Source of the DNA: an uncultured Pirellulales bacterium
GTDB taxonomy: Bacteria; Planctomycetota; Phycisphaerae; Sedimentisphaerales; Anaerobacaceae
Assembly (NCBI GenBank): GCA_964520535.1
Contig: CAZFOQ010000002.1
Coordinates: forward strand, 32,990-96,989
Length of the DNA: 64,000 nucleotides
Reading direction: 5' to 3'
The notes beneath the pieces were generated by a model that did no database searches, was not told the origin of the DNA, and worked only from the letters and a program-made list of their open reading frames with translations. Of this stretch, positions 23,681 to 59,293 are shown piece by piece. The translations under genes and the position numbers were made by a program. Positions within the stretch are counted from its first letter, which is position 1; each line of letters begins with the position of its first letter.

Positions 23681-23698
23681 ATTAGAATTCCAAAGTTA

Positions 23699-44401: not shown

Positions 44402-44410
44402 TCAAAAAAT

Positions 44411-46562: not shown

Positions 46563-46588
46563 TTGACTTGTATGTTTTGGGGTATAAT
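46563..46588 (+). promoter_or_regulatory. consensus-hexamer sigma70-like promoter (TTGACT ... TATAAT) with a short 14-nt spacer, upstream of the radical SAM gene
   Basis: TTGACT at 46563-46568 and TATAAT at 46583-46588. The spacer is suboptimal at 14 nt. Confidence 0.3.
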
Positions 46589-46637
46589 GTTGTCGAACAA
46601 GGTAAAAAGTATTCTGTGGCCGAAAGGACTCTTTCCT

Positions 46638-47729
46638 ATGGGCACAGCAAAAACATTCAGGCCGCGAACCATTATGCTCTCGCAAAAAGTGGCCGAGCTT
46701 CCGGAGGCTCAGCGAATTCTGGATTTGTTTCCATGTGCGGACGTCCGGGTGATTGAGCAACAGCGAAAGCCTTCACTGCCGGATATGTCACCATCTCAAT
46801 CGCTGCTTGCAAGCAAAAGAACTTTGATGATAGGCCGAACCACTTCTTTCGTAGGCCGCTTCGATGGTCAGCTCGGCGAAAATATCCGATGCTGTCCTTA
46901 CTATAAACTGGTTCCGATCTCGAACGGCTGCCCTTACTATTGTACGTATTGTTACCTGGCATATGTTTATCGCAAGCATGCTCCATTCATCAAAATAAAC
47001 ATCAACTACGATGCGATGTTCCGGCAGATCCGCAGGACTACGGACGGTGCCGACGGTAAGGTAAGCTTCAATATGGGAGAGATGCTGGACAGCCTCGCTC
47101 TCGATCACATCACAAATCTGACACCAAAGCTGATCCCGTTCTTTTCCAAATTCTCCAACGCCTATCTCATGCTGCTGACCAAAAGCAGCAATATCAACAA
47201 CCTGCTGCAAGTTGAGCCGAACGGGCAAATCGTCTTGTCCTGGAGTCTGAACAGCCTTCAGGCGATTCGCCAATATGAATTAGGTACTGCCGACCTTGAC
47301 GACCGTATCGAGGCAGCCAGACGTTGCCGGGAGCATGGCTATCGAATCCGATTTCGCATCGACCCGGGCATTCTCCATGACAACTGGCAAGCCGGCTATG
47401 CTGATTTAATCCGGAAGTCACTCACTGCCGTAAAGCCGGAAAATATCACGCTCGGAATGTTGAGATTGCTGCCCGGGCATTTCCAACTGGCCGAAGGCGC
47501 GTATGGCGATCGTGCACATCAGCTTTGCAATCGCAGCTTCGTCAAAGGTGCTTCTGACCGCAAGCTTCGTTATCCGCCAAAAGAACGGGCGGAATTCTAC
47601 AGCTTCCTGATCGATAAAATTCGCAGCTTCGATAAGGATGTCTCTATCAGCCTTTGCAGAGAAACGCCGGAGATTTGGGACATCTTCAAAAACCGCTGCG
47701 ATCCGGCCAAATGCAACTGCGTGATATAG
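46638..47729 (+). CDS. radical SAM protein of the spore-photoproduct-lyase-like (DNA repair photolyase) family
   Basis: NGCPYYCTYCYL (CxxxCxxC). The C-terminal half resembles SPL-family elements (RIRFRIDP, MLRLLPGH). The start at 46638 (MGTAKTF...) is chosen because the track start at 46563 lies inside the promoter hexamers; the start is uncertain. Confidence 0.65.
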   Translation: MGTAKTFRPRTIMLSQKVAELPEAQRILDLFPCADVRVIEQQRKPSLPDMSPSQSLLASKRTLMIGRTTSFVGRFDGQLGENIRCCPYYKLVPISNGCPYYCTYCYLAYVYRKHAPFIKININYDAMFRQIRRTTDGADGKVSFNMGEMLDSLALDHITNLTPKLIPFFSKFSNAYLMLLTKSSNINNLLQVEPNGQIVLSWSLNSLQAIRQYELGTADLDDRIEAARRCREHGYRIRFRIDPGILHDNWQAGYADLIRKSLTAVKPENITLGMLRLLPGHFQLAEGAYGDRAHQLCNRSFVKGASDRKLRYPPKERAEFYSFLIDKIRSFDKDVSISLCRETPEIWDIFKNRCDPAKCNCVI

Positions 47730-47742: not shown

Positions 47743-48048
47743 TTAAAAAGTCTCATCGGCAATGTCAGTTTCAGAGACGTGTTTTTCAATTGCACGCAGG
47801 CGGTATTCGTATGAGATGCTCTTTCCCCAGAGTAATTCGAGTTTCTGCTCAAAATCCTTTTGTCCGGCCAGCAGCATACTGACATCCCGCTGGAGCAGGT
47901 CGAGCTGCATCTGCAAATTAAACCAGCTTCCGACAATCAATGAAGCTAAAAGGAACAGTTGAACAATCACAGAGAGATTAATCTGCCGATTCAGCCGCCA
48001 TCGATTTGAATTTTCTCTTACCATTATTGACCTCATGTGCTCGAGCAA
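47743..48048 (-). CDS. small membrane/coiled-coil protein (101 aa), uncertain
   Basis: ORF in an otherwise empty 330-bp gap. It has one TM segment (LSVIVQLFLLASLIVGSWF) and then a coiled-coil. Confidence 0.3.
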   Translation of the reverse strand: MLEHMRSIMVRENSNRWRLNRQINLSVIVQLFLLASLIVGSWFNLQMQLDLLQRDVSMLLAGQKDFEQKLELLWGKSISYEYRLRAIEKHVSETDIADETF

Positions 48049-48061: not shown

Positions 48062-48433
48062 TTATGCCGGTGTATAGAAAACATTTTTGCCGCCTATGCG
48101 AAACATGACGACATATGTGTCCGCCGCCAGGGTCCCCTGCTGATCGAAAGGCTCGGCCAGATTAAATGCCTGAATTTGCTGGCCGATTTCGACCGGCTCT
48201 GTGCCGGCATCGCTGATCACAATAACGATGACATTATAGAGATTATAGGAGGAATTACTTTTAACCTTGACCGCCCAGGCAATTGTTCCGGCACCGGGTG
48301 AAGTCACCATCGTTGTATCATGCGTCCTTTGTGATGGCGCTCGGGAAAGCTGCTCCAGCACCTGCCGTGCGTTCGTGTTGGATGTTGGCTCGCTCATGAT
48401 TTTCTCATCCGGATAATTTTCAAATTCGTACAC
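48062..48433 (-). CDS. hypothetical protein (123 aa), last gene of the phage-like module
   Basis: ORF in the co-directional cluster, overlapping the upstream gene by about 40 bp. No recognisable motif. Confidence 0.45.
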   Translation of the reverse strand: MYEFENYPDEKIMSEPTSNTNARQVLEQLSRAPSQRTHDTTMVTSPGAGTIAWAVKVKSNSSYNLYNVIVIVISDAGTEPVEIGQQIQAFNLAEPFDQQGTLAADTYVVMFRIGGKNVFYTPA

Positions 48434-50226
48434 TGCTTTTGAAAATCCATGTGCACACGCTCGATTCGGCTCCGGCTGCGGTTGTCCCTGCGGCAGGAAA
48501 GCAGGTCCCTGCTCTCGGGAGAAGCGCTCACTCTATCACCGAGACGATAATCAAAGGACAAATACGGCGTTTGAATCTCCGCTGTCTCGATGATCTCCGG
48601 CGACGTTTCCGCCGCCTTGCGGACAAACTCATAGAGGGCCTCGGAATCATCCACTTCATTCGGGACACCGAGCATCGGATCCGTACTATTGGCGAAGATG
48701 CTCTGGCCGCAAACTTTGCAGTATTTGAATTGTTTCGGCAGAGTCAGGATATGCTCAACAACTGGAACCACAGAATGAACCGGACCATCGGCCACAATGG
48801 CACTTAATCTCTTATCGCTGATGACCGACGCCGTGATTCGGAACCTCAGGCCTCCCTTGAGCAATGCCTCCCAGAGTTTTGTGCCGAGCCGCTCGCCGCT
48901 GAGCCAGACGCCGCATTCATCAGTTAGGGTATTGAAGGCATCGAGATACTGCCACCAGGTCAGGCCGTTATCATACGAGACCTGGAGATAATAGCCCAAC
49001 GATCTGCCCTGACTGTCGGTGGTCAGTGCCGGCCAAAAACGTTTGCGGCAATGGATGTAGTTTTCGCTCTGAAAAATCTTTGAAAAATCTAATGCGTCAC
49101 CCCGATAGTAAGGAGGGCCGCTATAATCGCCCGCCTCGTTCAAAGTCCATTTGCGATAGACATCCCGAACCTGATAGAAATCCGGATTCGTGGACGGCGA
49201 GAAATAGTCATAGCCGTTACTTTCGAGACTGCTGTCCCAGGCCATCTTTAATTCGAAGGTCCCTTCGAAGATTTTGTAATCGCCCAAACCGATATACTTG
49301 TGTGTCACCGGCCAGAAATTCTTACTACTGCTCAAACCGGCAATATTTGTCTTAGAGAGACTAAGCTGCTCGCCTGCTTTCTGACAATCCAATTCGACGA
49401 TTCTTCCCGTATCGGATTTATAAAATACAATCGCCTGAGCCGGTCCGGTCGGATTCATCCGGGGAACAAACTTAAAATCAAGACCAATTCTCTCGCAGCA
49501 GCGATGAAGAGCCTCCAAAAGACTCAATCCGGTGACATCGAGATCACGCACAATCTGGTTATCCGTCAACGCCTGCAAGCGGTTAAATTCCGGCATGTAC
49601 AGACAACCTGTCGGCAGATATTCGCTTAGAAGATAATCCATCGCCTGGGCATACGTCCAGAGCCTGCCTTGTGACACTTTCGGGCAGAAAACCGTATATT
49701 TTTTGCCGTTCATCTGCACCGGCGATTCGCTCGCATTGGGATTGCTGTCGGGATTAAAGATGGTATCAAAACCTTCCAAAAACACATTTGTTCCATCGGC
49801 ATTTGCAATTCGCTGGCCGAAGACTGTCACCCGCTTGAGGTTCGCACTAAAATCTCTGGCGATAATCTCGACAGTTTCATCGTCAGCTTGCAGTTGAGTT
49901 TTAATACTCTCGATATGTCCTTCAAAGACAGGATAGCTAAAAACCGCCGCTCCGGGAGCTACACCATTGTATAGGGCCCGAATGCTGATGGATTTGCCCA
50001 TAGGAAAAAGTGTTTCAATATCTTCGATAGCATTGAAACTGCCGTTCTCATACGCAGCGGAATTATATTTTAACCTAGCTCGGCTAAATTCCGGCCAGCC
50101 GTCACGAACAATCTCGAGTGGCTCCAGAGCCGGGCACAATATACCATCAACAAAAATACAGACAGAAGCAGCCGGCAGTGCCAGTGATGTTTGCTCTGAT
50201 TGAAAAAAGTCGATTCGATTGGACAT
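48394..50226 (-). CDS. large hypothetical structural protein (610 aa), phage tail/baseplate-like
   Basis: Long ORF. No NTP-binding motif (no GxxxxGK[ST]), so it is not a terminase. Lies downstream of the LamG fibre-like gene. Confidence 0.5.
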   Translation of the reverse strand: MSNRIDFFQSEQTSLALPAASVCIFVDGILCPALEPLEIVRDGWPEFSRARLKYNSAAYENGSFNAIEDIETLFPMGKSISIRALYNGVAPGAAVFSYPVFEGHIESIKTQLQADDETVEIIARDFSANLKRVTVFGQRIANADGTNVFLEGFDTIFNPDSNPNASESPVQMNGKKYTVFCPKVSQGRLWTYAQAMDYLLSEYLPTGCLYMPEFNRLQALTDNQIVRDLDVTGLSLLEALHRCCERIGLDFKFVPRMNPTGPAQAIVFYKSDTGRIVELDCQKAGEQLSLSKTNIAGLSSSKNFWPVTHKYIGLGDYKIFEGTFELKMAWDSSLESNGYDYFSPSTNPDFYQVRDVYRKWTLNEAGDYSGPPYYRGDALDFSKIFQSENYIHCRKRFWPALTTDSQGRSLGYYLQVSYDNGLTWWQYLDAFNTLTDECGVWLSGERLGTKLWEALLKGGLRFRITASVISDKRLSAIVADGPVHSVVPVVEHILTLPKQFKYCKVCGQSIFANSTDPMLGVPNEVDDSEALYEFVRKAAETSPEIIETAEIQTPYLSFDYRLGDRVSASPESRDLLSCRRDNRSRSRIERVHMDFQKQCTNLKIIRMRKS

Positions 50227-50270
50227 ATTTCGCTTCTCGTACTTATCCCTGATTTCACCGGGCGACTATA

Positions 50271-51782
50271 TCAAATACTTTTGACCTTTATAATATCGAT
50301 TGGATTGGGATTTGCCGAATCGAGTTGAATCCTTAACTGTGACAAAGATTCGTTCTCGATCCCATCAGGACTTTCAGCTCGTACGGCAAAAAGATATTGA
50401 TCGGCTTCGAGTGCATGACTTTCATAGATGTAAAATTTTCGTCCCCGATATTCAATTGTAGCCAGCGGATTTTCGTAGTCGATTTGACCTGAGGCATTAT
50501 CGTAATAAATCCTGAAACAAACCGGCTGTGATTTCTGCTCGAGCTGGCAATAATACAAGATAATCCTTATCTTATTTCCTGCGACCCGCTCCACTGTTGA
50601 TACAAAAACTTTATTGGGATGCGGCCCCTCAAGACCGCCGTCTGATGTTATCGTGATTTTCACCGCAGCGGCTATAGTCCGCTCCTGACAGCCACAATTG
50701 TTGAATCGGCGAACGATATAAAAACAGGTCGAGTCAGCATCATGTGGGATATAGGTCGGCGGATTGATATCATCGGCATCCGGCTCGGAGACAACCAGGA
50801 TATTATCAAAGTCGATTTGTACCATCGAGGGGCCACGATAAAGTGTCGTACAGCCGTTAACACGAATCCAGAACCAACCCAGACTCAAAACCGTGCCCAA
50901 CTTAAAGGCATTGGCGGTCATTCCATTAAATAATGCATCGTAAATCCAAAACCTTTCTAACTCCGGCAATCTGCAAATTGATGTCAACTGACCCTTTACT
51001 GTAGATTGTGCACTGATTGCACCAGCGAGGTAAACTACAGTTACAGGGACATGCATTGAGACCGACGCAACATCATCGAACATTGCAAACGGTTCCCGAT
51101 AGAGCCAGGCAATTTCCCGGGCAGACAGGACACGATTATAAAGCATTACATGGTCGATAATACCCGACATATAAGCGCCGGGAGTTGAATCCGCAGTCGC
51201 CCCTATATGCGTTCGGTCCACAGGCGGAACGGCACAAGCAGTTGCATTTGTACCTTCATTTCCCCCATCAATATATGCTCTTCGATCACTGTTAGAAACA
51301 AATACAGCTACACACTGATGCCAAATACCGACTGAGAAAGCCTTCGTCGCAACAGCAGTGCCACCGCTCCAGTCGGTATCACGTATGAAAGCAGCAACCG
51401 GATTCCCGGACCACGTTCCCAGCATACCGAGAAGAATGTTACCCGCTTCTGCTCCTGAATAACCAATATCTAAAATCACATTGTCGGTATTTGTGTTATC
51501 ACTTTTAGCCCAACTGACAATTGAAATGGGAAGTTGAGTTAATATTGCAGAACTATATTGCAGATATTCACCGCTCCCACTATTAAACAATAAACCGCCT
51601 CCATATTTACTATTCGACCACTCCGGAGAACCGTTGCCGATATCGAAATTATTCTTCATTCCGCTCGAATCAAGAAATATACTGCCGGACCTTTCATTGA
51701 AAAGCCAGCAACCGACTAATCCCCGAGCAAGCGGATGGCTTCGGTTTATTTGTATTGCTCTTAGAGGTTTAAGAAGTGACAT
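50271..51782 (-). CDS. LamG/concanavalin-A-like lectin domain protein (phage tail-fibre/receptor-binding-like) with a C-terminal IYYDNASGQIDYENPL domain
   Basis: 503 aa. LamG_3-like segment LLFNSGSGEYLQYS...VSWAKSDN...GIWHQCVAVFVSNSDRRAYIDGG...MSGIIDHVMLYNRVLSAREIAWLY. The C-terminus shares the IY[YF]DNxxGxIDYENPL motif with the 53973-54749 protein. Confidence 0.6.
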   Translation of the reverse strand: MSLLKPLRAIQINRSHPLARGLVGCWLFNERSGSIFLDSSGMKNNFDIGNGSPEWSNSKYGGGLLFNSGSGEYLQYSSAILTQLPISIVSWAKSDNTNTDNVILDIGYSGAEAGNILLGMLGTWSGNPVAAFIRDTDWSGGTAVATKAFSVGIWHQCVAVFVSNSDRRAYIDGGNEGTNATACAVPPVDRTHIGATADSTPGAYMSGIIDHVMLYNRVLSAREIAWLYREPFAMFDDVASVSMHVPVTVVYLAGAISAQSTVKGQLTSICRLPELERFWIYDALFNGMTANAFKLGTVLSLGWFWIRVNGCTTLYRGPSMVQIDFDNILVVSEPDADDINPPTYIPHDADSTCFYIVRRFNNCGCQERTIAAAVKITITSDGGLEGPHPNKVFVSTVERVAGNKIRIILYYCQLEQKSQPVCFRIYYDNASGQIDYENPLATIEYRGRKFYIYESHALEADQYLFAVRAESPDGIENESLSQLRIQLDSANPNPIDIIKVKSI

Positions 51783-51809
51783 TTATTGTTTTTCCGTAAA
51801 CACAACTGT

Positions 51810-52202
51810 TTAAGCAGTGATATAATTCCATGCCTGAACATAAGCTCTGACATTGTGACTATCTGTTGAACCTGTCTGTTGCACGCCGATCCTGAAATGA
51901 GCCAGATCCCTGACGATAAAGCTCAACTGTTGTGGGTCCGTACTTTTATCTCCCTGCATCTCCCAGATAGGCGTGTCATCATAATTGGAGCCATCGAGGC
52001 AGCCATAGAGCTTGATCTTGACCTCATCCGTCGGGGATGCATCATAGTCAATTTCCACGACCAGATGTACTCCCTCATAGCCGTTTGTCTCCAAATCAAC
52101 ATCCGAAGAAAAGACTTCAGTCGTTCCGGATAAAGTTACCCAACCATCTCCGGTTCCGATGATCTGACTTTGAGAAGCCCAGTTCTTACTTATAGTTGCC
52201 AT
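51810..52202 (-). CDS. hypothetical protein (130 aa), phage-like module
   Basis: ORF in the cluster. Confidence 0.45.
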   Translation of the reverse strand: MATISKNWASQSQIIGTGDGWVTLSGTTEVFSSDVDLETNGYEGVHLVVEIDYDASPTDEVKIKLYGCLDGSNYDDTPIWEMQGDKSTDPQQLSFIVRDLAHFRIGVQQTGSTDSHNVRAYVQAWNYITA

Positions 52203-52347
52203 TACTCGCTCCTTATTTGTTTTTGTATCTTATTAATCCAGGCTCAGGACCAAATCACCTGCCGCAAATTTTACGATGTCTCCACTGCCGATGGATTTTG
52301 ACGGACTTAGTTCGCCGCAAGCCAGCATATTTCCACCTGCGACGGCA

Positions 52348-52623
52348 TCAAACAAAATAAGTCATTGTCCCCCAATTGCCGGTCGCCATTGGAAAGATTA
52401 TCTCATTGGCATTATCTAATGAACCGCTTAAAGCGGCATTCCAATCACCGGCGGAAGTTTGTACTCGTGCATATGCATTTCCGCTCGGCTCGGCCAGAGA
52501 CAAACCATCATCGGCCGGATCTCCTATGGATAATCCCACGTAAATCGTCGGAGGCGTTAATGTGGCTTTGCTAAAAAGATAGTCTATGATTCTATCTTCC
52601 CAATAATCTGAAAAACTTCCCAT
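52348..52623 (-). CDS. hypothetical protein (91 aa), phage-like module
   Basis: ORF in the cluster. Confidence 0.35.
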   Translation of the reverse strand: MGSFSDYWEDRIIDYLFSKATLTPPTIYVGLSIGDPADDGLSLAEPSGNAYARVQTSAGDWNAALSGSLDNANEIIFPMATGNWGTMTYFV

Positions 52624-52651
52624 GTCCCTATCCCCTCGTTATTGCCGTTAT

Positions 52652-53137
52652 TTATTCCGGCGTTTTTGTGATACTCGATTGACTTTCGGATGGAGTATGA
52701 GTCACCAGCACCGTTTGCCCATCATCATCGTAATACTGGATTTGTCCGCTTAATTTGTTCTGAACGGCCTTATTGGCAAGCAATTTCTCGGCGGTGATTT
52801 TTCCTGAGCCCGACCAGACAATCTCGCTACTTTCCACGAATGTATCGCCATCTGCGGGATTAGCGCCGGCCTGCAGGAATATCTGGATGGAATATCTCCC
52901 TGACGAAATATTGCTATCGAAGTCTCCTACATATCTGCACCCGTCCTTGTCCGTCAGGCTGATATCATAATCGTCGGCATCTCGGCTGTCCGTCCCCCAA
53001 TCTTCGAAAACCTGCCCCGCCACGTACCAAACTTGTCCTGCGGAGTTTCGGACAATGGAATAAAGGGTATTACCGGATACGTAATCTGCTTGTATTTCGT
53101 TCGGCATTTGAGAACTCCAGTGAAATTCCTCAATCAA
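52652..53137 (-). CDS. hypothetical protein (161 aa), phage-like module
   Basis: ORF in the cluster. Confidence 0.45.
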   Translation of the reverse strand: MIEEFHWSSQMPNEIQADYVSGNTLYSIVRNSAGQVWYVAGQVFEDWGTDSRDADDYDISLTDKDGCRYVGDFDSNISSGRYSIQIFLQAGANPADGDTFVESSEIVWSGSGKITAEKLLANKAVQNKLSGQIQYYDDDGQTVLVTHTPSESQSSITKTPE

Positions 53138-53165
53138 TTGAGGGGCTATATACTTTTAACTTATG

Positions 53166-53954
53166 TTATGTTTCCTCAGTCCAGGTCCCGTTCTTGGCGA
53201 TAGTCACCCAGTCACCATTAGCATCGGCTATCAGGCTCAGGCTTTCACCTATTGCATTCGCGGATTTATATTTGCCTGCCGTCTGGCCACTATCGTCCCG
53301 AATCGTCGCCGAGCCGGGATCGATGTGTAATTCCTGTGCCGCCTGCACGGCAAAATGAAAGATGGTTCCAGCCTGTGCCGAAGCCGGTAGCGTTAGTGTC
53401 ACTGTTGTAGTTGCCCCCAGGTTGGTGTGAACGCTGCCGGATTCGGACTCTGTGAGTGTGTCATCGGTGGTGTGCACCTCGATGGTCTTTGTCAGGCCGC
53501 CAGCACCATATGGCATCAAAACATTATGACCGGCCCGGCAATCAGTGATCGAATCGATATCACCGCCGGAGGTGGACACAATCGCCAAACGGATATGCGG
53601 CGTTACCGCCATATCGGGAAAATCATCGTATTCGTTAGTGACAAGACTACCGGCAGAATCCAGATAGATGTAAATATCCTGCTTATCATCCGCCAAAGTA
53701 TTGCCCGAAGAACCTCCGAAACTGATAAGCTCCGTCCCCAGCCAGAACTTTCCCGCCTTGACACCGATGTCCAGACCGCCTTCGTCATAGACTCTTAGGT
53801 CGTTTGACCGGCAAGTCGCCAGTAACAGCCGATATAACAGCTTTCTGAAATGCAGGTAATACGGCGCTGTCCCGGTCGGGATATATTCTACGCCGGTCTC
53901 GCTTTCGGCTTGCAGGTTCAGCAGTTCATTATCCGACGGATATGTTTCAGCCAT
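53166..53954 (-). CDS. hypothetical protein (262 aa), phage-like module
   Basis: ORF in the cluster. Confidence 0.5.
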   Translation of the reverse strand: MAETYPSDNELLNLQAESETGVEYIPTGTAPYYLHFRKLLYRLLLATCRSNDLRVYDEGGLDIGVKAGKFWLGTELISFGGSSGNTLADDKQDIYIYLDSAGSLVTNEYDDFPDMAVTPHIRLAIVSTSGGDIDSITDCRAGHNVLMPYGAGGLTKTIEVHTTDDTLTESESGSVHTNLGATTTVTLTLPASAQAGTIFHFAVQAAQELHIDPGSATIRDDSGQTAGKYKSANAIGESLSLIADANGDWVTIAKNGTWTEET

Positions 53955-53972
53955 AACGTCCTCCCTATGCTT

Positions 53973-54749
53973 CTATAGAATGTTCAAAACCAGTTCATTT
54001 GTCTGTTTGTCAAACGATGAAATCTCCAATCCCTCGGCCGGCCTTGCAGCAGGCGTCACTGTAATCGGCCCGGTTTCAGTCACGTTGCTGGAGTTGCCTT
54101 TTTCATCAACGACTATGACGGCAAACTTATAAACACCGGCATCCAGCGGCGGGCTGGTCCATTGGATCGTATCCGCATCGAGTCCGAACAGGCCATATCC
54201 GAAGCTTCCCTTGCCGAATCCAATCGCGGCGGCACCATCATAACCAAAGTCACTGATCCCGAACTGGCTCATTCCAAAGCCGGCCTTGTCCTGCCAGGCA
54301 GGCCAGAGACGAATGGGCGGATCTGTGAGTGGATTTTCGTAATCGATTTCGCCGGTGCAATTATCGAAGTATATTTGTGCCGTTGCTTCAGGTGGCAAAT
54401 CATGGCTTCTCAGCATAGATATTTTCACTCGTCCACTGTCACCATGTGAATCGTCAAGCTCGTCACTGAAATCGATGTCCGCATCCTGAGCCTGAACGGC
54501 AAAAACTTCAATCCTCACCGCACAAGTCAAAAAACTCGGTACCGGGACAATCATTTGCCTTTGCTCGGTATCGAGCGTTGTGCTGGCAAATTTTCCGTTT
54601 ACATAAATTTGATAAAACACCTCCTGTAAAACCGACCGCCATCGAACCAAAGCAACTCGCGGAGCTGGAACGGGACACCCATCCGCCCAGATACCGTCGG
54701 GCAATACAAAAGCTCGAACCGAACTGATGCCGTTACTAATAAGTGACAT
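53973..54749 (-). CDS. hypothetical structural protein (258 aa) sharing the IYFDNCTGEIDYENPL motif with the LamG protein
   Basis: ORF in the cluster. Motif IYFDNCTGEIDYENPLTDPP versus IYYDNASGQIDYENPLATIE. Gly/Phe-rich segment GFGKGSFGYGLFGLD. Confidence 0.5.
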   Translation of the reverse strand: MSLISNGISSVRAFVLPDGIWADGCPVPAPRVALVRWRSVLQEVFYQIYVNGKFASTTLDTEQRQMIVPVPSFLTCAVRIEVFAVQAQDADIDFSDELDDSHGDSGRVKISMLRSHDLPPEATAQIYFDNCTGEIDYENPLTDPPIRLWPAWQDKAGFGMSQFGISDFGYDGAAAIGFGKGSFGYGLFGLDADTIQWTSPPLDAGVYKFAVIVVDEKGNSSNVTETGPITVTPAARPAEGLEISSFDKQTNELVLNIL

Positions 54750-54760
54750 AATAGTGCTCT

Positions 54761-55129
54761 TTAGGTCAATTGTGTGTAAGTGATTTCATAGTCGACGACG
54801 ATGAAAGCCCCGTCCAGCCGCTCATCCGTCACCTGAAAAAAATCCATTCGAAGATGATCAAATTCTCTTCCATCCTCGGTGACAAGAGTATGCGTTTTCC
54901 CATCCATATAATTCGATATGGCACTGATTCTATCGTCTACTTTTACCCTGCTTTTGGCTCGCAAAGTTCCTGTTTGTTTGACTTTTCTGCCGCGTTGGCC
55001 AAGATCAATGGTCAATACGCCGTCCAGGCCCGGCACAGCTTTTTCTATCGAATCCCGGCGAAAACTCCCGGCCTCGAACACCAACTGCTGCTGGTCAAAT
55101 ACTGCTTGTCCGTCTATTGTTGTACTCAT
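54761..55129 (-). CDS. hypothetical protein (122 aa), phage-like module
   Basis: ORF in the cluster. Confidence 0.45.
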   Translation of the reverse strand: MSTTIDGQAVFDQQQLVFEAGSFRRDSIEKAVPGLDGVLTIDLGQRGRKVKQTGTLRAKSRVKVDDRISAISNYMDGKTHTLVTEDGREFDHLRMDFFQVTDERLDGAFIVVDYEITYTQLT

Positions 55130-55141
55130 TTGGTTTCGCCT

Positions 55142-55798
55142 TTAATCCCGCATTAATCTGCCGGATGCCCCGATCTGAGTGACATCAACCACGCCGTCGG
55201 TACCAAGGTCGAGACTGAGTCGCGTTCGTTCTTTTGCCCTTGTAAAGAGCCTCTGATAGTGCAGGGACTTTTTCCAGAAATTCTCATCATCAGCTTTACC
55301 TGCCAGCATGGCATACACGCACGAAAGTACGGCAAAAACTGATGCCTGCCTCAGCACACTCGTATCCAGAACATCTTCGATGTCATAATCGGACGACGGA
55401 TTTCCCGGACGGATACCGAAATATTCAGTTATTTGAAATCCAACCTCATTGGCCTGAGGCGCCAAGGTACTGACACGGTATGAGACATTTGTTGCCGCCG
55501 GTGGTGCGATGGCATTGGCTTGAGAATCCGACCTGATTATCGAAACACTCAGTTGCGTCGCCGAGTCCACTGAAACAATCTCGTAAGCTCCGTCCAGCGT
55601 CCCATCTTCTGACTGAAGATAGATCACGCCGCCCGCCGAGACCTGAGCAGAGATAAAATCTTCGCCGGATGCGGTGAAGGTTGTTCCGCTGAGAGCCCCC
55701 CCTGTCCCCTCAGTCAGGACTTGCCATGGAAGATGAAGCTGCCCGAAAAGCATTGGCTCATATATCAAAATATCCGCATCGTTCGAAAAGCTAACCAT
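55142..55798 (-). CDS. hypothetical protein (218 aa), phage-like module (head-tail connector or tail tubular candidate)
   Basis: ORF immediately downstream of the capsid-like gene. Confidence 0.45.
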   Translation of the reverse strand: MVSFSNDADILIYEPMLFGQLHLPWQVLTEGTGGALSGTTFTASGEDFISAQVSAGGVIYLQSEDGTLDGAYEIVSVDSATQLSVSIIRSDSQANAIAPPAATNVSYRVSTLAPQANEVGFQITEYFGIRPGNPSSDYDIEDVLDTSVLRQASVFAVLSCVYAMLAGKADDENFWKKSLHYQRLFTRAKERTRLSLDLGTDGVVDVTQIGASGRLMRD

Positions 55799-55826
55799 TT
55801 TTGTTTGTCCTTGTTATTTTCTTCTT

Positions 55827-55874
55827 GTTATTCTGAGCGGAACGCTCTTTACATTGTCATTCTGAGCGGAACGC
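55827..55874. repeat. two 19-bp direct repeats (GTYATTCTGAGCGGAACGC) in the spacer downstream of the capsid-like gene
   Basis: 55827-55845 gttattctgagcggaacgc and 55856-55874 gtcattctgagcggaacgc. They share the core TGTCATYCTGAGC with the tandem repeat at the window end. Confidence 0.5.
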
Positions 55875-55976
55875 AGTGGAGTCGAAGAATCTGGCCTGGT
55901 GGTTTAATATCATTCTCGAAATTAACTTTGCAATCATCGGCCAGATCCTTCGTTATCGCTCAGGATGACAAGCCCT

Positions 55977-57131
55977 TTAACTTGTGCTCAAGTCGCGAAT
56001 CAGGCCGTGGGCCGCTTCATTTTTCAGCTCGACGGTATATTCGCCGATTAGTTCACCGCACTCATAATCTCCACTGCTGGCCAGAGGTTTGAAATGGAAA
56101 CTCCGCCCGGCCAACGGCAGAACGTTGATGCGGGATGAATCCAGCAACAGCACCGCATCGGCTGGCAGCCATCGGGTCGTAATAATCCGGCACACACCGA
56201 AGTCACTCTCATAAATGCTGATCATATCGGTGAAAGTCGTATCGTTGGCGCCGAAGCTCCTGCTGTTGGCGGAAAAGGCGTTGATCTTTCGTTTCTGAAA
56301 ACCGCCGACCACAATCAGGTCCACATTACCACTGCTGTTGTTCCAGATTTGTCGAAGTACATAATTAATTTTGTCTTCATCAAGATCTGTGCCGGATGGA
56401 AAGCCGCTGTCACCGGTGTGGAAGACATTCATCGAGAAGTGCTGAATAATTCCCTTCATCGACCTTCGTACCGAGCCGCTGCCCTCGGGATTACTGGCCG
56501 GCTGGCCGCCGTTGATAACTGTATTTTCCAAATCGCGAATCATCTCTCGCAACCGTTCCTGCTTTTGAAAATCCAGCTCGTCGGCCAATCCCAACTGACT
56601 TGCCGCCATATCTGTGCCGCTAACCTCGACAGTCGCAGTAAATATCTGTGTGTAGTTGCCGCACCGGCTGCGGTTGGTGAACCGAGCACTGGGTTTGTCC
56701 GCCCCTTCGAGAGCCGCGTTTCCGAGAATATTGATGACCTGGTCATCGGCCAGGTCCTCGGCGGTTGTACCGGCATAGCCGCGGACAACCGTCAATGTAT
56801 TGCTGTTGATTGCCGTGACGAGCATTAATTCCTCACTACCAGCGATCTGAATCTGGTCGCCAATGCGAAATCGGCTTCCGTTATCGACAACAAAATCCGT
56901 GTCAGTGCTCGGATCAGTATACGTGCTGTCATTGACCGCGTCTTTGTTCGGCAGAAGTTCATCTTCGAGCCACTCGTGATGCGTGCTTCGGGCCTCCCGC
57001 ATCGGGTCACCCAGAGCATCCAGCAAAGGAGTCTCATAAGGCGTAATAAGCCCGATGATATCCGATACATCCTCAGCCAGCTCCGGCAGAGTCGTCCCTG
57101 CTGTATATGTCGCTTTTCCTGTAAATGCCAT
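55977..57131 (-). CDS. phage major-capsid-protein-like protein (384 aa)
   Basis: Its size, its position after a coiled-coil scaffold-like gene and a portal-like gene, and the 178-bp spacer with repeats downstream (typical of highly expressed capsid genes) support the call. No definitive motif. Confidence 0.4.
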   Translation of the reverse strand: MAFTGKATYTAGTTLPELAEDVSDIIGLITPYETPLLDALGDPMREARSTHHEWLEDELLPNKDAVNDSTYTDPSTDTDFVVDNGSRFRIGDQIQIAGSEELMLVTAINSNTLTVVRGYAGTTAEDLADDQVINILGNAALEGADKPSARFTNRSRCGNYTQIFTATVEVSGTDMAASQLGLADELDFQKQERLREMIRDLENTVINGGQPASNPEGSGSVRRSMKGIIQHFSMNVFHTGDSGFPSGTDLDEDKINYVLRQIWNNSSGNVDLIVVGGFQKRKINAFSANSRSFGANDTTFTDMISIYESDFGVCRIITTRWLPADAVLLLDSSRINVLPLAGRSFHFKPLASSGDYECGELIGEYTVELKNEAAHGLIRDLSTS

Positions 57132-57199
57132 TTTCTTTTCTCCTGTTTAAACCTCCCAGTAACACCGGGGGCTAATTATTACTTTTCATCGTTACTTTT

Positions 57200-57715
57200 T
57201 CATAAATAGTTTCTTCGCAGTTTCAGATACTCATGCAAATCTGTTCGATTTCCTGTTGTCGCCGCTTTTTTTGCCGCCCTTTCGAGGATGGTATGAACGT
57301 TAGTTGAACGCTCCTTAGCTCCGGCGGTCTTTGTCGCCGTCACGAGCTCATCGGTTGGACTGAATAGATATTGCTTTTCCTTCTTTAACTGCTCAATTAC
57401 AGCATCCGGATCCGCTTCTTTGTTACCCTGCAACCTGGCTTTGGCAAGCAGCACTGCCGATTCAATATCAACCGCTCCGGCAGAAATTAATTTATGCATC
57501 AACGTTTGCTCGGCTTGGATGTCACTCAATTGCTCAGAGAGTTTTACTGTATTCTCCTGTGCCTGGGCCAATTGCTCGGTCAGGGATTCAACTTTTTTCT
57601 CGGCACTCTGTGCTCTTTTACGATAGCGGATCGATTCGGCCACCGGGACCAACTTCACGCTGTCGGCTTCTGATGTTTCGACGATGTCGTCTGACAAAAC
57701 TTCCTGTGTCTCCAT
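57200..57715 (-). CDS. phage scaffolding-like protein (171 aa, acidic coiled-coil)
   Basis: Highly charged helical sequence (ESLTEQLAQAQENTVKLSEQLSDIQAEQTLM...) between the portal-like and capsid-like genes. Confidence 0.4.
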   Translation of the reverse strand: METQEVLSDDIVETSEADSVKLVPVAESIRYRKRAQSAEKKVESLTEQLAQAQENTVKLSEQLSDIQAEQTLMHKLISAGAVDIESAVLLAKARLQGNKEADPDAVIEQLKKEKQYLFSPTDELVTATKTAGAKERSTNVHTILERAAKKAATTGNRTDLHEYLKLRRNYL

Positions 57716-57760
57716 TAGACTGTTACCTCCAGAGCCTCAATCAATCAGGGGCTCAATATC

Positions 57761-59293
57761 TCATTGTTCGTATCCTAATTCTCTGAGCACCTGCTCAGTT
57801 GACACTCCTAAATCTTTTTTCATCTGTGCTTCTTTGAGCTTTTCGGCCATGTTCTCCGGCAGCGGGCTGGGAAATATAATATCGACCTCTCTGTCCGTGG
57901 TGCCGGTCTTATATATGTCGGCGGTATCGAGCATTCTTAAAACCATCCGGCAAATTTGTTTTACCCCCTCGCTGTAAGTAAATCTCTTACGTTCGTTCTT
58001 TGAGAGCATCCCCATCAAGGTCAGTCTCAAGGCCACCGCACTTGTCAAATTGCCGAGCTTGTTCTTCAAAACCCCCGCCACCAATGGTGTCACCGAGCTG
58101 ACCTTGTCCATCGCCTCTCTGATTTCTGCTATGTGCAAAGCTTCGCTGGGAGTCGCTGCGTCTCCGCCGAACTCCTCGATAGAAGCCTCCGGATTATCGG
58201 TGTACCACATTCGACCGGGCGAAACAGGTTTGTCCTCAAAGCCCTCGATTCCTTTGCCCAGATACATTTTAAACGACTGGAACGTGATTCTGCTGGCCCT
58301 GTCGCTTAATCGTGTATTGAGTTCGTCCTGCAACGGGATTAACGGCTCAACGTTACTGTGACCCTCATAGAAATAGGGCTGTGCGATGTTCTGAATATGC
58401 ACGACCGGCAGAAATTCCCATGGCAAGATGCCCTCGGCCACAAGCTCCTTGTCTTCATATCTTTGCCAGGCATTTGCCGAAGTGATTTCGGTTACGGCGA
58501 CAATCTGCCGACTGTCACCGCTGCGCCGGCCGCCGGATAAAATCCGTGAAAGAAACGAGCTTTTTCTGGCGAGGGCATTTTTCTTCTGATAGAAATGCTG
58601 CACATAATACCGGATCTCTTTGTAATCGTTTTCATCCAGAACCGGCAGTGCTCTTGGCGCTTCAATCAGTTCCAGTCCGATTGTTTGTACCAGTCGTTGT
58701 GCTTCTTCGAGAGATCCCGTTGTCCGGGAATCCTGTGAGTGGTTTTGGAAGGAGGAGGAAGTGACTCGTTCGATGATCTCATCGCCAGGCCTGACGAAGC
58801 AATCGACGAAACCGTAAACACTTCCGAGCACTGCCATATCCTGGAGAAATCCGATAGCACCATTAGCCGAAAAGAGTGCCTTTATAATCGACTCAATTTC
58901 TGCACGTTTCAGGTCGTCCGGTGATTTGGAAGTAAAACTAATGGATTTGCCGAACAAAAAATCCACGGCGGCATTAATCCGCCATGCAATATCATTTTCG
59001 ATCACAACTTCTTTTCTCTGTATATCTCTCAATACCCTTGTACCGGGTAAACCAGAACGGCCGGAGTGGACGTAACCGGTTATTCTTGCCGGCAGGCCAA
59101 ATTCCTGTGCCTGTATGGATCTCTTTGATGATTCTGCCAGCCTGCTGTCAGAAATTTCGATCTTTGGATTTGCATAATAATTCCAAAGCAGCTCAAAGTG
59201 AGCTTGAATATCGACCCAGCGTGTATCGATGAGCCAGTCAATGTAATCTGCCTCAAGCCCGGTGTCCTGGAATATGTCAGTTTCAAATGCCAT
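57761..59293 (-). CDS. phage portal-like protein (510 aa)
   Basis: First gene of the module. Its size and position upstream of the scaffold and capsid genes fit a portal. It has no Walker A, so it is not a terminase. Confidence 0.4.
   Translation of the reverse strand: MAFETDIFQDTGLEADYIDWLIDTRWVDIQAHFELLWNYYANPKIEISDSRLAESSKRSIQAQEFGLPARITGYVHSGRSGLPGTRVLRDIQRKEVVIENDIAWRINAAVDFLFGKSISFTSKSPDDLKRAEIESIIKALFSANGAIGFLQDMAVLGSVYGFVDCFVRPGDEIIERVTSSSFQNHSQDSRTTGSLEEAQRLVQTIGLELIEAPRALPVLDENDYKEIRYYVQHFYQKKNALARKSSFLSRILSGGRRSGDSRQIVAVTEITSANAWQRYEDKELVAEGILPWEFLPVVHIQNIAQPYFYEGHSNVEPLIPLQDELNTRLSDRASRITFQSFKMYLGKGIEGFEDKPVSPGRMWYTDNPEASIEEFGGDAATPSEALHIAEIREAMDKVSSVTPLVAGVLKNKLGNLTSAVALRLTLMGMLSKNERKRFTYSEGVKQICRMVLRMLDTADIYKTGTTDREVDIIFPSPLPENMAEKLKEAQMKKDLGVSTEQVLRELGYEQ

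What the first reader, a model, noticed from the sequence alone, without database searches (positions are those of the whole stretch)
48062..59293. Phage-like structural module without terminase, integrase or lysis genes
Thirteen minus-strand ORFs sit in the order portal-like (510 aa), acidic coiled-coil scaffold-like (171 aa), capsid-like (384 aa), several 90-260 aa proteins, a LamG lectin-domain fibre-like protein (503 aa), and a 610-aa protein. This matches podovirus-style structural gene order. Nothing in the window has a terminase Walker-A/nuclease layout, a tape measure, or an integrase, and the flanks are cellular genes (a PfkB kinase and a radical SAM protein). Two proteins share an unusual IY[YF]DNxxGxIDYENPL motif. 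Possibilities are a defective prophage remnant, a satellite or GTA-like element, or a domesticated phage-derived particle.
Basis: partly seen in the sequence, partly recalled or inferred. Interest (0 to 1): 0.55.

Follow-up and report, generated by a model that had tools for sequence, protein, structure and literature searches.

The report
Domesticated phage particle genes in Phycisphaerae
This is the head-and-tail gene operon of an ancient tailed-phage-derived particle system kept almost unchanged in the chromosomes of hundreds of sediment Planctomycete (Phycisphaerae) species, which makes it a strong candidate for a new, undescribed gene-transfer-agent-like element and not an ordinary or dying prophage.

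Summary
Window 48062-59293 (- strand) encodes an SPP1-type portal, a scaffold, an SU10-family HK97-fold capsid protein and about ten tail or fibre proteins. No terminase, tape measure or integrase was found in the window.

- **Conservation.** The same operon, in the same order, occurs in at least 80 of 272 hit species-level genomes (the 80 fetched), nearly all labelled Planctomycetota (Phycisphaerae/Sedimentisphaerales). Capsid identity is 82-93%, while the closest cultured phage reaches 32%.
- **Selection.** Synonymous sites are saturated (pS about 0.7), but pN is only 0.075 for the capsid and 0.136 for the portal. Every gene shows dN/dS of 0.05-0.25.
- **Co-divergence.** The operon diverges together with neighbouring host-type genes (Mantel r = 0.82). 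In some lineages housekeeping genes (aspS, dxs, dinG) lie inside the region or directly flank it.
- **Terminase.** "No terminase" is an edge effect. The family has an equally conserved large terminase 2-12 kb from the portal. It ends the divergent HTH, ABC-ATPase, GNAT-like, ParB operon that starts at window 61371. In this contig it most likely lies just past the assembly end.
- **Tail type.** The 610-aa protein has a tail-hub fold, so the tail is not clearly podovirus-like.

Best reading: a vertically inherited, domesticated particle system resembling a gene transfer agent. Particle production and DNA transfer are untested.

The parts
57761..59293 (-). Portal protein (510 aa), first gene of the head-tail operon
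   Evidence: PF05133 SPP1_portal 4.9e-13; phrog_64 5e-21. 61 full-length orthologues, pN 0.136 against pS 0.66.
57200..57715 (-). Scaffolding protein candidate (171 aa, acidic, helical)
   Evidence: PF06810 Phage_scaffold 1.4e-5, below the Pfam cut-off. It lies between portal and capsid. 79 orthologues.
55977..57131 (-). Major capsid protein, SU10 family (HK97 fold), with an insertion of about 87 aa relative to the Pfam model
   Evidence: PF17236 4.3e-87; phrog_1328 4.7e-77; PDB capsid chains 9ny2, 9in6 and 7z45. 82 orthologues at 68-93% identity, pN 0.075, dN/dS about 0.05.
55142..55798 (-). Conserved 218-aa protein. By position it is a head-completion or neck (adaptor) candidate; function is inferred only.
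   Evidence: No Pfam, PHROG or PDB match. 75 orthologues, dN/dS 0.11. The single-sequence AF2 model was unusable.
54761..55129 (-). Conserved 122-aa virion-module protein, function unknown
   Evidence: 70 orthologues in conserved order, dN/dS 0.15. No family or PDB match.
53973..54749 (-). Conserved 258-aa protein carrying the IYFDNxxGxIDYENPL motif and a Gly/Phe-rich segment
   Evidence: The motif is shared with the 503-aa protein. 67 orthologues, dN/dS 0.14.
53166..53954 (-). Fibre or spike-type protein (262 aa) made of an N-terminal anchor module and a C-terminal module
   Evidence: In 1,457 relatives the two halves (1-145 and 150-261) occur separately, on proteins of 250-780 aa. Among 38 of these relatives scanned with Pfam (39 members including the window protein), 7 carry DUF2793 and up to 5 a beta-helix-type domain. 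Apart from the capsid and the accessory l_130, it is the most conserved protein of the operon (79% median identity).
52652..53137 (-). 161-aa protein at the start of the variable (receptor-binding) segment
   Evidence: 39 full orthologues. In other genomes it neighbours inserted genes for a polysaccharide deacetylase (449 aa) or a beta-helix protein (493 aa).
52233..52623 (-). Gp80-like (podophage GP4 fibre I) gene, frameshifted here into 91 + 40 aa. It is an accessory gene, absent from one subclade.
   Evidence: PF23140 5.6e-22. The orthologues shown (14 of 36) are intact, 131-141 aa, apart from L017. The frame change after ...TMTYF is seen in three-frame translation. The JGI gene calls also split it.
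51810..52202 (-). 130-aa accessory protein that co-occurs with the Gp80-like gene
   Evidence: 33 orthologues at 83% median identity, present or absent together with gene m.
50271..51782 (-). 503-aa protein: a lineage-specific N-terminal LamG lectin domain fused to a conserved 229-aa core (residues 275-503) that stands alone in other lineages
   Evidence: PF13385 1.7e-15. Short (about 230-aa) orthologues align only to residues 275-503. It lies directly upstream of the hub.
48394..50226 (-). Tail hub protein (610 aa); the N-terminal ~250 residues have the gp27 / Mu gp44 / Tal fold
   Evidence: AF2 with a 39-sequence alignment gives pLDDT 70-90 for residues 20-270; the C-terminal half is unreliable. 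Foldseek against the PDB finds the HFTV1 tail, AlgoCIS, Mu gp44 and VgrG at E 1e-6 to 1e-3. Foldseek against BFVD finds Mu gpP, P2 gpD and tail proteins.
48062..48433 (-). 123-aa conserved protein overlapping the end of the hub gene
   Evidence: 41 full orthologues, dN/dS 0.17.
47743..48048 (-). 101-aa protein with an N-terminal transmembrane helix and a coiled coil. An envelope or release role is speculative.
   Evidence: 50 orthologues; the hydrophobic segment and heptad region are conserved.
46587..47729 (+). SPL-type radical SAM enzyme on the opposite strand, lodged between the last two element genes in many but not all lineages
   Evidence: PF20903 1.7e-32. Present in about 25 loci and absent between h and f in others.
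45924..46541 (-). 205-aa lipoprotein with a C-terminal hydrophobic helix, conserved last gene of the block
   Evidence: The L(A/T)GC lipobox Cys is conserved in at least 70% of 31 aligned sequences. It follows h or SPL in 35 loci.
59994..60956 (-). PfkB-family sugar kinase, co-directional with and upstream of the portal; a conserved companion
   Evidence: PF00294 3.3e-51. Present in 41 loci. In collinear genomes it lies between TerL and the portal. It co-diverges with the portal, Mantel r 0.82.
61371..61787 (+). 138-aa protein with two HTH motifs (sigma-70 region-4-like), first gene of the divergent packaging operon; regulator candidate
   Evidence: HTH_23 8.9e-8, Sigma70_r4 (below cut-off), phrog_1740. 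Its distances correlate with those of the portal (Pearson r 0.92).
61849..62538 (+). ABC-type ATPase (229 aa)
   Evidence: PF00005 3e-11; phrog_293 4e-29. In phages nickie and an SSU5-like Klebsiella phage its homologue lies in a ParB, ABC, GNAT-like cassette directly upstream of the TerS-position DNA-binding gene, TerL and portal.
62535..63272 (+). 245-aa GNAT-like partner of the ABC ATPase
   Evidence: phrog_886 7e-15; Acetyltransf_10 weak. tblastn hits phage genes annotated 'ABC-type ATPase fused to a predicted acyltransferase domain'.
63294..64000 (+). ParB_N-domain protein (282 aa; runs off the window end)
   Evidence: PF02195 ParB_N on the source contig; ParB PHROGs at 1e-16 to 1e-18. 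In other genomes it is followed by a TerS-like 143-176-aa gene and TerL.

Best explanation
The window holds most of a chromosomally fixed, vertically inherited particle-forming system derived from an ancient tailed phage. It is a gene-transfer-agent-like ('viriform') candidate shared by Phycisphaerae/Sedimentisphaerales Planctomycetes.

**Shown.**
- One operon (59293 to 45924, - strand) encodes portal, scaffold, SU10-type capsid, about four conserved neck or tail proteins, a variable receptor-binding segment, a tail hub, and two envelope-type proteins.
- A second, divergent operon starts at 61371: HTH regulator, ABC ATPase, GNAT-like protein, ParB-like protein.
- In related genomes that second operon continues to a TerS-like protein and a large terminase.
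- All these genes have been kept intact, under strong purifying selection, since lineages diverged far enough to saturate synonymous sites.
- Host genes, including aspartyl-tRNA synthetase in some lineages, have become interleaved with them.

**Inferred.**
- On some host signal, possibly acting through the HTH protein, a procapsid is built on the portal.
- The terminase fills it with DNA.
- A short hub-tipped tail with lineage-specific lectin, beta-helix or deacetylase fibres is attached.
- Released particles bind the surface glycans of related cells.
- No integrase, excision or replication module was found within about 10 kb of the capsid or TerL genes, and the genes are dispersed among host genes. 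The DNA packaged is therefore most likely host chromosomal DNA, either random headfuls or headfuls starting from a nearby pac site. That would make the system work like a GTA.

In this particular contig the terminase is not seen. It is predicted to lie just past the contig end.
For: **Family assignments of the core genes.**

**Breadth.**
- 272 GTDB species representatives encode a capsid relative.
- The best 80 are 82-93% identical, and all but two are labelled Planctomycetota. They include complete 2.7-6.2 Mb chromosomes and contigs of up to 631 kb.
- Roughly 1,000 or more 90%-identity clusters of the clade-restricted hub protein exist in public data.
- Only 2 IMG/VR contigs match.
- The best cultured-phage capsid is 32% identical.

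**Synteny.** The same gene order is found in about 80 loci.

**Selection.**
- pS is 0.66-0.80 (saturated), against pN of 0.075 for the capsid, 0.136 for the portal and 0.141 for TerL.
- These values are comparable to or lower than PfkB (0.132).
- All 82 TerL and 82 capsid copies are intact.

**Co-divergence.**
- Portal against PfkB: Mantel r = 0.82, p = 0.001.
- TerL identity (71-76%) tracks AspRS identity (76-84%) pair by pair.
- Gene-content and context variants cluster on the element tree.

**Endogenisation.**
- dxs and dinG, or AspRS, HisK and PEP-CTERM genes, lie directly upstream of the portal in some lineages.
- Some genomes show TerL, then 1-6 genes, then AspRS and HisK; in L072 the portal follows HisK after three more genes.
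- Sulfatase, oxidoreductase or rluA genes lie between the TerS-like gene and TerL.

**Terminase.**
- L085:466-2013 has Walker A and B motifs and Terminase_6C.
- More than 120 clusters are 69-90% identical.
- 527 metagenome loci were confirmed.
- It lies 4-7 kb from the portal in L099, L103, L131 and L144.

**No integrase or tRNA** in the window.

**Composition.** Module GC3 is 0.52, within about 1 sd of host genes (0.45 +/- 0.07).

**Definition.** These properties match the sequence-testable GTA criteria listed in PMC9662315. That paper also describes the BhGTA TerL as lying outside the structural cluster and being 81-100% conserved.
Against: - No experiment exists. Particle production, packaged DNA and transfer are all unknown.
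- The terminase of this very genome was not found. Both available contigs end about 6.7 kb past the window, after two paralogous beta-helix genes.
- The TerS-like gene is also absent from the contig. A DUF1376 gene and an HNH/AP2 gene sit in its place.
- Capsid size is unknown. SU10-family capsids can hold 40 kb or more, so the criterion 'the head is too small to carry the element' is untested. Preferential packaging of the element's own neighbourhood is not excluded.
- No endolysin or holin was recognised.
- No tail tube or tape measure was recognised, so tail architecture is unresolved.
- Vertical inheritance was tested against neighbouring genes only, not against a genome-wide species tree.
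- dN/dS at saturated dS is only semi-quantitative.
- One accessory gene (gp80-like) is frameshifted in this genome.
- Taxon labels of the MAGs ('Pirellulales', 'Aegiribacteria') are as deposited and may be wrong.
Confidence: 0.62

Rival explanations
1. A domesticated particle with a function other than gene transfer. Examples are a PBSX-like killer particle used in competition between strains, a device that delivers protein or DNA cargo, or a fixed 'lateral transduction' platform that preferentially exports the neighbouring chromosomal region.
For: The conservation evidence fits equally well. It shows that a particle is selected for, not what the particle does. The fast-evolving, modular receptor-binding segment is what an antagonistic or targeting device would show. 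That segment includes the LamG fusion, beta-helix and deacetylase inserts, and the o_262 modules. A conserved TerS-like gene next to ParB could define a fixed pac site.
Against: A conserved intact TerL argues that DNA is packaged. That is unnecessary for a pure killer or protein-delivery particle, although PBSX does package DNA. No toxin or lysis cassette was recognised in the conserved set.
Confidence: 0.25
2. An ordinary temperate prophage, intact or recently inactivated, whose terminase, integrase, lysis and replication genes lie just outside the window.
For: A terminase does lie outside the window in related genomes. ParB, DUF1376 (primosome-like) and HNH genes lie to the right of the window. 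One IMG/VR provirus call (L005) covers a related locus.
Against: - The same locus occurs in at least 80 (272 hit) different species, with saturated synonymous divergence and host-like protein divergence.
- Essential and housekeeping genes are interleaved with the element.
- No integrase or tRNA was found in the window, and none among the flanking ORFs scanned or carrying precomputed Pfam calls.
- There is no close relative among 50,697 phage records.
- L005 carries radical SAM genes upstream of its portal.
Confidence: 0.04
3. A decaying, functionless prophage remnant retained by chance or by linkage.
For: In this contig no terminase or TerS-like gene was seen. The gp80-like gene is frameshifted. 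Host genes have been inserted within the region.
Against: Neutral decay cannot keep about 15 genes intact and at dN/dS of 0.05-0.25 across lineages with pS of about 0.7. All 82 capsid copies and 82 TerL copies are without stop codons. The capsid (87% median identity) appears more conserved than the few AspRS pairs compared (76-84%).
Confidence: 0.04
4. A phage satellite (PICI or capsid-forming PICI type) that hijacks a helper phage.
For: The structural module lacks its own replication and lysis functions, and a capsid is present without an obvious tail tube.
Against: Satellites are small, integrase-bearing, patchily distributed mobile islands. Here no integrase was found and the locus is fixed and syntenic across species, has its own TerL, hub and fibres, and co-diverges with host genes.
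Confidence: 0.02

Closest known systems
RcGTA-like gene transfer agents of Alphaproteobacteria (Rhodogtaviriformidae)
   Same: - A chromosomal, vertically inherited phage-derived head-tail cluster under purifying selection across an order- or class-level host clade.
- A gp27/Tal-type tail hub.
- Variable fibre or spike genes.
- Genes spread over more than one transcription unit and mixed with host genes.
- A regulator candidate with sigma-region-4-like HTH motifs. From my own knowledge this recalls GafA; it is an analogy only.
   Different: - Different host phylum.
- The capsid is SU10-family and built with a scaffold, not HK97 gp5-type with a prohead protease.
- TerL is a Terminase_6C type with a Cys-rich insertion, and it is separated from the portal by host genes.
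- The packaging operon carries an ABC-ATPase, GNAT-like and ParB cassette that RcGTA lacks.
- No tube or tape measure gene was recognised.
- Function is entirely untested.
BhGTA / VSH-1 of Brachyspira (Brachygtaviriformidae)
   Same: The TerL lies outside the structural cluster, is highly conserved within the host clade and is far from any phage TerL. The structural proteins have few or no close phage homologues (PMC9662315).
   Different: No sequence relationship was tested or seen. BhGTA homologues in other Brachyspira species show no gene synteny, whereas here gene order is conserved. BhGTA has an identified endolysin and this element does not.
PBSX-type defective prophages of Bacillus
   Same: A conserved, non-propagating, phage-like particle locus with its own terminase that packages host DNA (my own knowledge of PBSX).
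   Different: PBSX is contiguous, is restricted to a species group, has a repressor, a lysis cassette and a contractile tail, and acts as a killer particle. None of these features was found here.
SU10-family (PF17236) capsid phages, e.g. Sporosarcina phage Lietuvens and Pseudomonas phage BroderSalsa
   Same: The capsid protein family and the gene order terminase, portal, scaffold, capsid, tail. The collinear genomes L131 and L144 keep this ancestral order.
   Different: Capsid identity is at most 32%. Those are autonomous viruses of 45-65 kb with contiguous genomes. Lietuvens has an integrase, sheath, tube and tape measure.
ParB, ABC-ATPase, GNAT-like cassette of phage nickie and SSU5-like phage-plasmids
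   Same: Homologous ABC ATPase, GNAT-like and ParB genes lie directly upstream of the TerS-position DNA-binding gene, TerL and portal.
   Different: Identity is 25-27%. In those phages the cassette is co-directional and contiguous with the terminase. Its function is unknown in either setting.

Membership tests
Gene transfer agents / viriforms (criteria as listed in PMC9662315) | Genes for a caudovirus-like particle (portal, capsid, tail, terminase) encoded by the host genome | tested here: met
   Portal, scaffold, capsid, hub and fibre genes are in the window. TerL is present in the family but was not seen for this genome.
Gene transfer agents / viriforms (criteria as listed in PMC9662315) | Fully endogenised, often across multiple loci, with no capacity for autonomous replication or excision | tested here: met
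   Host genes (aspS, hisK, dxs, dinG, rluA, sulfatase) lie between or next to element genes. No integrase or tRNA was found in the window or in the sampled flanks. Whole genomes were not scanned.
Gene transfer agents / viriforms (criteria as listed in PMC9662315) | Mostly vertical inheritance and co-diversification with the host; slow evolution relative to phage homologues | tested here: met
   Synteny in about 80 species. Mantel r of 0.76-0.89 against neighbouring genes. TerL tracks AspRS. pN of 0.075-0.14 at saturated pS. This was tested against linked genes only, not against a species tree.
Gene transfer agents / viriforms (criteria as listed in PMC9662315) | Particles carry mostly random host DNA | not testable with these tools
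   Needs sequencing of DNase-protected particle DNA.
Gene transfer agents / viriforms (criteria as listed in PMC9662315) | Head capacity smaller than the element, so it cannot package itself | not testable with these tools
   The capsid T-number cannot be read from sequence. The element region spans about 25-40 kb.
Gene transfer agents / viriforms (criteria as listed in PMC9662315) | Packaged DNA is delivered to other cells | not testable with these tools
   Needs a transfer assay.
Ordinary temperate prophage | A contiguous genome with integrase and att sites, lysogeny control, replication and lysis modules | tested here: not met
   None of these was found in the window or the sampled flanks. 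The region is interrupted by host genes.
Ordinary temperate prophage | Patchy, strain-level distribution with phage-like, fast sequence divergence | tested here: not met
   Present in 272 species representatives with 82-93% capsid identity in the best 80. The nearest cultured phage is 32% identical.
   For: the gp80 (GP4 fibre I) domain and the absence of a recognised tube, sheath or tape measure. Against: the 610-aa protein has the hub fold of long-tailed phages and contractile injection systems. No adaptor or nozzle was identified.
SU10_MCP capsid family (PF17236) | Match to the family profile above the curated threshold | tested here: met
   292.8 bits against a cut-off of 24.1.
Phage satellites (PICI / cf-PICI) | A small mobile island with integrase and replication genes, dependent on a helper phage | tested here: not met
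   No integrase was found. The locus is fixed and syntenic and has its own TerL, hub and fibres.

The most novel reading that the evidence does not exclude
This is an independently domesticated gene transfer agent, the first in Planctomycetota. It would have been fixed since an early ancestor of the Sedimentisphaerales-type Phycisphaerae and still be active in hundreds of anoxic-sediment species. It would be built from an SU10-type capsid, a hub-tipped tail with rapidly swapping glycan-binding fibres, and a packaging operon with an ABC-ATPase, GNAT-like and ParB cassette of unknown role.
Probability: 0.45. Interest if true: 0.8.

Novelty: new variant of a known kind. Interest (0 to 1): 0.72.

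Why it matters
Only a handful of independently domesticated GTAs are established: three with a known genetic basis (Rhodobacterales, Bartonella, Brachyspira; PMC9662315), plus, from my own knowledge, Desulfovibrio and Methanococcus.

- **A new lineage.** A further GTA-like family in Planctomycetota would be a fresh case of phage domestication. Its capsid family and genome layout differ from those of the known GTAs.
- **Ecology.** It would point to capsid-mediated gene exchange in abundant, mostly uncultured anaerobic sediment bacteria.
- **A testable cassette.** It offers a natural experiment on the phage ParB, ABC-ATPase and GNAT-like cassette that sits next to terminases and has no known function.
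- **Annotation practice.** Virus-prediction pipelines can label such loci as proviruses, as happened for L005. Window-limited reading can wrongly call them 'terminase-less'.

Tried and rejected
- **Terminase inside the window.** Pfam on 60 window ORFs, phmmer with four phage TerLs, and tblastn with the family TerL all found nothing.
- **Extending the source contig.** Both JGI contigs that carry the locus (78.9 and 103.6 kb) stop at the same point. TerL contexts from the same sample series (L096, L097) belong to another organism.
- **ABC ATPase plus 245-aa protein as a split terminase.** Rejected. It is a true ABC ATPase plus a GNAT-like partner with phage homologues that sit beside real terminases.
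- **Defence-system reading of the right-hand operon and the AT-rich island.** PADLOC gave only weak hits and no defence system was recognised.
- **L004, the only divergent 'viral' capsid relative, as a source of phage context.** It has a lone capsid gene beside DnaB and a methylase, with no portal or TerL.
- **Rfam.** Only sub-threshold chance hits.
- **A shared upstream regulatory motif for the portal, TerL and HTH operons.** None was found by alignment or k-mer counts. The consensus promoter and terminator scan was uninformative.
- **PDB sequence searches** for the portal and the 610-, 262- (profile), 218-, 122-, 258-, 161- and 503-aa proteins gave nothing significant apart from an S-layer/LamG hit.
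- **AF2 single-sequence for r_218** was unusable, pLDDT 37.
- **The C-terminal half of the hub model** is unreliable.
- **Literature.** No paper in the library links GTAs or this module to Phycisphaerae or Sedimentisphaerales.

Full report
**1. What is in the window.**

The window is part of JGI metagenome contig Ga0111033_1046475 (78,923 bp). Window position equals L001 position + 52,534, and the contig ends at window-equivalent 70,708.

- The 510-aa protein is an SPP1-type portal (PF05133 4.9e-13; phrog_64 5e-21).
- The 171-aa protein is a weak match to phage scaffolds (PF06810 1.4e-5).
- The 384-aa protein is an SU10-family major capsid protein (PF17236 4.3e-87). It also matches solved capsid chains.
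- The 91-aa ORF carries the Gp80 'fibre I' domain of podophage GP4.
- The 503-aa protein has a LamG domain.
- The motif shared by the 258-aa and 503-aa proteins is real.

Sixty window ORFs were scanned with Pfam.
- To the left lie glycosyltransferases, sugar-nucleotide enzymes, a flagellar cluster, purine-synthesis genes and PQQ/PEP-CTERM proteins.
- No terminase, integrase or tape measure was found, and there is no tRNA.

**2. The operon is not a one-off.**

A scan of one genome per species (GTDB) with the capsid protein found relatives in 272 species.
- The best 80 are 82-93% identical.
- All but two are deposited as Planctomycetota: Phycisphaerae, Sedimentisphaerales, Phycisphaerales and 'Pirellulales'.
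- They include four complete chromosomes and contigs of up to 631 kb.
- IMG/VR holds only two hits, and the best cultured-phage capsid is 32% identical.

Mapping the window's proteins onto these loci shows one gene order throughout:
- portal, scaffold, capsid, 218, 122, 258, 262;
- a variable segment;
- the 229-aa core of the LamG protein, the 610-aa protein, 123, 101;
- sometimes SPL on the other strand;
- a lipoprotein.

- The 101-aa protein has a conserved N-terminal membrane helix plus a coiled coil.
- The last gene has a conserved lipobox.

**3. Selection and inheritance.**

Between loci, synonymous differences are saturated (pS 0.66-0.80). Non-synonymous differences stay low:

| Gene | pN |
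|---|---|
| Capsid | 0.075 |
| 262-aa protein | 0.127 |
| Portal | 0.136 |
| Hub | 0.197 |
| PfkB kinase (for comparison) | 0.132 |

- dN/dS on unsaturated pairs is 0.05-0.25 for every gene.
- Almost all copies that are not cut by a contig end are full length.
- Pairwise protein distances of the portal correlate with those of PfkB (Mantel r 0.82, p 0.001). Hub distances correlate with those of SPL (r 0.85).
- Variants in gene content (gp80 and 130-aa genes present or absent; LamG fused or not) and in genomic context group together on the element's own tree.
- GC3 of the module (0.52) is within about one standard deviation of the window's host genes (0.45 +/- 0.07).

This is the pattern of an old, vertically transmitted, functional gene set. 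It is not the pattern of a recent prophage or a decaying one.

**4. The flanks.**

- In most genomes PfkB lies just upstream of the portal, as in the window.
- In one subclade the genes upstream of the portal are dxs and dinG. In one locus (L072) they are AspRS, a histidine kinase and PEP-CTERM proteins.
- No terminase lies directly upstream of the portal in any locus.

**5. The right-hand operon and the terminase.**

Beyond PfkB, on the + strand, the window encodes:
- a two-HTH protein (61371);
- an ABC-type ATPase (61849);
- a GNAT-like 245-aa protein (62535);
- the start of a ParB_N protein (63294).

The contig then continues with DUF1376, an HNH/AP2 endonuclease and two secreted beta-helix proteins, and ends.

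The ABC and GNAT-like pair has homologues in Pseudomonas phage nickie and in SSU5-like phage-plasmids. There a ParB, ABC, GNAT-like cassette lies immediately upstream of the DNA-binding protein, large terminase, portal and capsid genes.

The terminase was found as follows.
- phmmer with four phage TerLs against all ORFs of all fetched loci found one hit: a 515-aa protein in L085, on the same strand as the HTH...ParB genes.
- It has Walker A and B motifs and a Terminase_6C nuclease domain. It is preceded by a 158-aa HTH protein, a TerS candidate.
- This TerL defines a family as conserved as the portal: more than 120 clusters at 69-90% identity, many invariant residues, 82 intact copies, pN 0.141 and pS 0.69.

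A metagenome scan with the TerL alignment returned 80 of 527 confirmed loci. Their maps give three layouts.
- **Canonical layout.** [portal operon, PfkB] lies divergent from HTH, ABC, GNAT-like, ParB and the TerS-like gene. Then come 0-7 kb of unrelated genes (sulfatase, a 1,100-aa oxidoreductase, rluA, secreted LamG or beta-helix proteins), then TerL.
- **Collinear layout (L131, L144).** Everything is collinear in the classical phage order, with PfkB between TerL and the portal.
- **AspRS layout.** In several loci TerL is followed by 1-6 genes, AspRS and a histidine kinase. In L072 the same AspRS and kinase lie upstream of three genes and the portal.

TerL identity between genomes (71-76%) follows AspRS identity (76-84%) pair by pair.

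In nine TerL loci a beta-helix protein of the kind that ends the window's contig lies directly upstream of TerL. The terminase of this genome is therefore most likely just beyond the assembly break. This is an inference; the gene itself was not recovered.

**6. What the tail looks like.**

- An AlphaFold model of the 610-aa protein (39-sequence alignment) is confident only for residues ~20-270.
- That part matches tail and baseplate hubs: the Haloferax HFTV1 tail, Mu gp44, AlgoCIS, phi812, VgrG, and in BFVD Mu gpP, P2 gpD and Tal proteins. E-values run from 1e-6 to 1e-3 at probability 1.0.
- The conserved core of the 503-aa protein (residues 275-503) lies directly upstream of the hub. The LamG domain is a lineage-specific fusion.
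- The 262-aa protein consists of two modules that recombine widely. Its N-terminal module heads proteins of 250-780 aa, and among 38 relatives scanned 7 carry DUF2793 and up to 5 a beta-helix-type domain. This is the signature of a fibre or spike anchor.
- Between it and the hub, different lineages carry a polysaccharide-deacetylase protein or a beta-helix protein.
- No tube, sheath, tape measure, adaptor or nozzle was recognised.

The particle thus has a hub-tipped tail with diversifying glycan-binding fibres. 'Podovirus-like' is not established.

**7. Interpretation.**

The sequence-testable GTA criteria (PMC9662315) are met:
- caudovirus-type particle genes in the host genome;
- full endogenisation, with genes spread among host genes;
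- vertical inheritance and slow evolution.

The precedent of Brachyspira BhGTA, whose conserved TerL lies outside the structural cluster, is close.

The experimental criteria cannot be addressed here. These are random host DNA in the particles, a head too small for the element, and delivery to recipient cells. Capsid capacity is a genuine unknown.

I therefore commit to 'domesticated, vertically inherited, particle-forming element that works like a GTA', at moderate confidence. The main rival is a domesticated particle with another use: killing, targeted delivery, or site-directed export of neighbouring DNA. Ordinary prophage, neutral remnant and satellite are each contradicted by tested features.

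**8. Novelty.**

Searches of the paper library found nothing linking GTAs or this gene set to Phycisphaerae or Sedimentisphaerales. Database names are 'hypothetical protein', 'DUF5309 family protein' or 'SU10 major capsid protein'.

The element belongs to a known kind (GTA / viriform / domesticated prophage). It is a new lineage with a different capsid family, a different layout and an unexplained ABC-ATPase, GNAT-like and ParB packaging-side cassette.

**9. Limits.**

- All related genomes are MAGs or metagenome contigs.
- Taxon labels are as deposited.
- Vertical inheritance was tested only against linked genes.
- dN/dS is approximate at saturation.
- The terminase of the window's own genome, any lysis genes and the tail core remain unseen.

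Noticed in passing
window 43973-45618 (- strand): An AT-rich three-gene island (GC3 0.25-0.30 against 0.45 for host genes): a HEPN-domain protein, a 152-aa protein and a 250-aa protein. The 250-aa protein has 28-35% identical homologues lying a few hundred bases to about 5 kb downstream of the conserved terminase, directly after it in some, in 26 metagenome loci.
   Followed up: partly
window 52233-52623 (- strand): The Gp80-like fibre gene is frameshifted in this genome (91 aa + 40 aa). The orthologues shown are single ORFs of about 131-141 aa (one other, L017, also looks disrupted). The JGI gene calls for two contigs from different samples also split it.
   Followed up: yes
L001 11388-11498 (window-equivalent 63922-64032, at and past the window end): A perfect 24-nt tandem repeat (4.6 copies) inside the ParB-like gene, coding CHPELNSP repeated.
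   Followed up: no
L085:466-2013 and alignment A1: The conserved large terminase has a cluster of invariant cysteines (C264, C269, C272, C278, C294) between the ATPase and nuclease domains. This is possibly a zinc-binding insertion.
   Followed up: no
L004 (IMGVR_UViG_3300027852_000006) 5970-7124: A lone capsid homologue (68% identity) in a 62-kb 'viral' contig. It lies beside DnaB, a C5 cytosine methylase, DUF4326 and a SocA/Panacea antitoxin-like gene, with no portal or scaffold nearby.
   Followed up: partly
L001 13073-17914 (right of the window): Two paralogous secreted beta-helix proteins (785 and 818 aa) with almost identical N-terminal regions. Both available contigs end about 260 nt after the second one, which suggests a repeat-caused assembly break.
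   Followed up: partly
protein list (P0249, P0315, P0321): The MAG 'Phycisphaerae bacterium SM1_79' carries three different homologues (66-70% identity to the query) of the 610-aa hub protein. It is either a mixed bin or a genome with several copies of the element.
   Followed up: no
window 55977-57131, residues ~76-160 of the capsid protein: The capsid protein is about 87 aa longer than the region of the Pfam SU10_MCP model it aligns to. The extra stretch gives weak hits to 'tail fibre' and 'virion structural protein' PHROGs, so it is possibly an inserted surface domain.
   Followed up: no
window 59626-59958 (+ strand): A 110-aa ORF for a small membrane protein lies between PfkB and the portal on the opposite strand. 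It was found in only one other locus, L006.
   Followed up: no
window 13813-25360: A flagellar gene cluster (FlgK, flagellin-like protein, FlgI, FlgA, FlgE/F/G, rod proteins) next to a large glycosyltransferase and sugar-nucleotide gene block.
   Followed up: no
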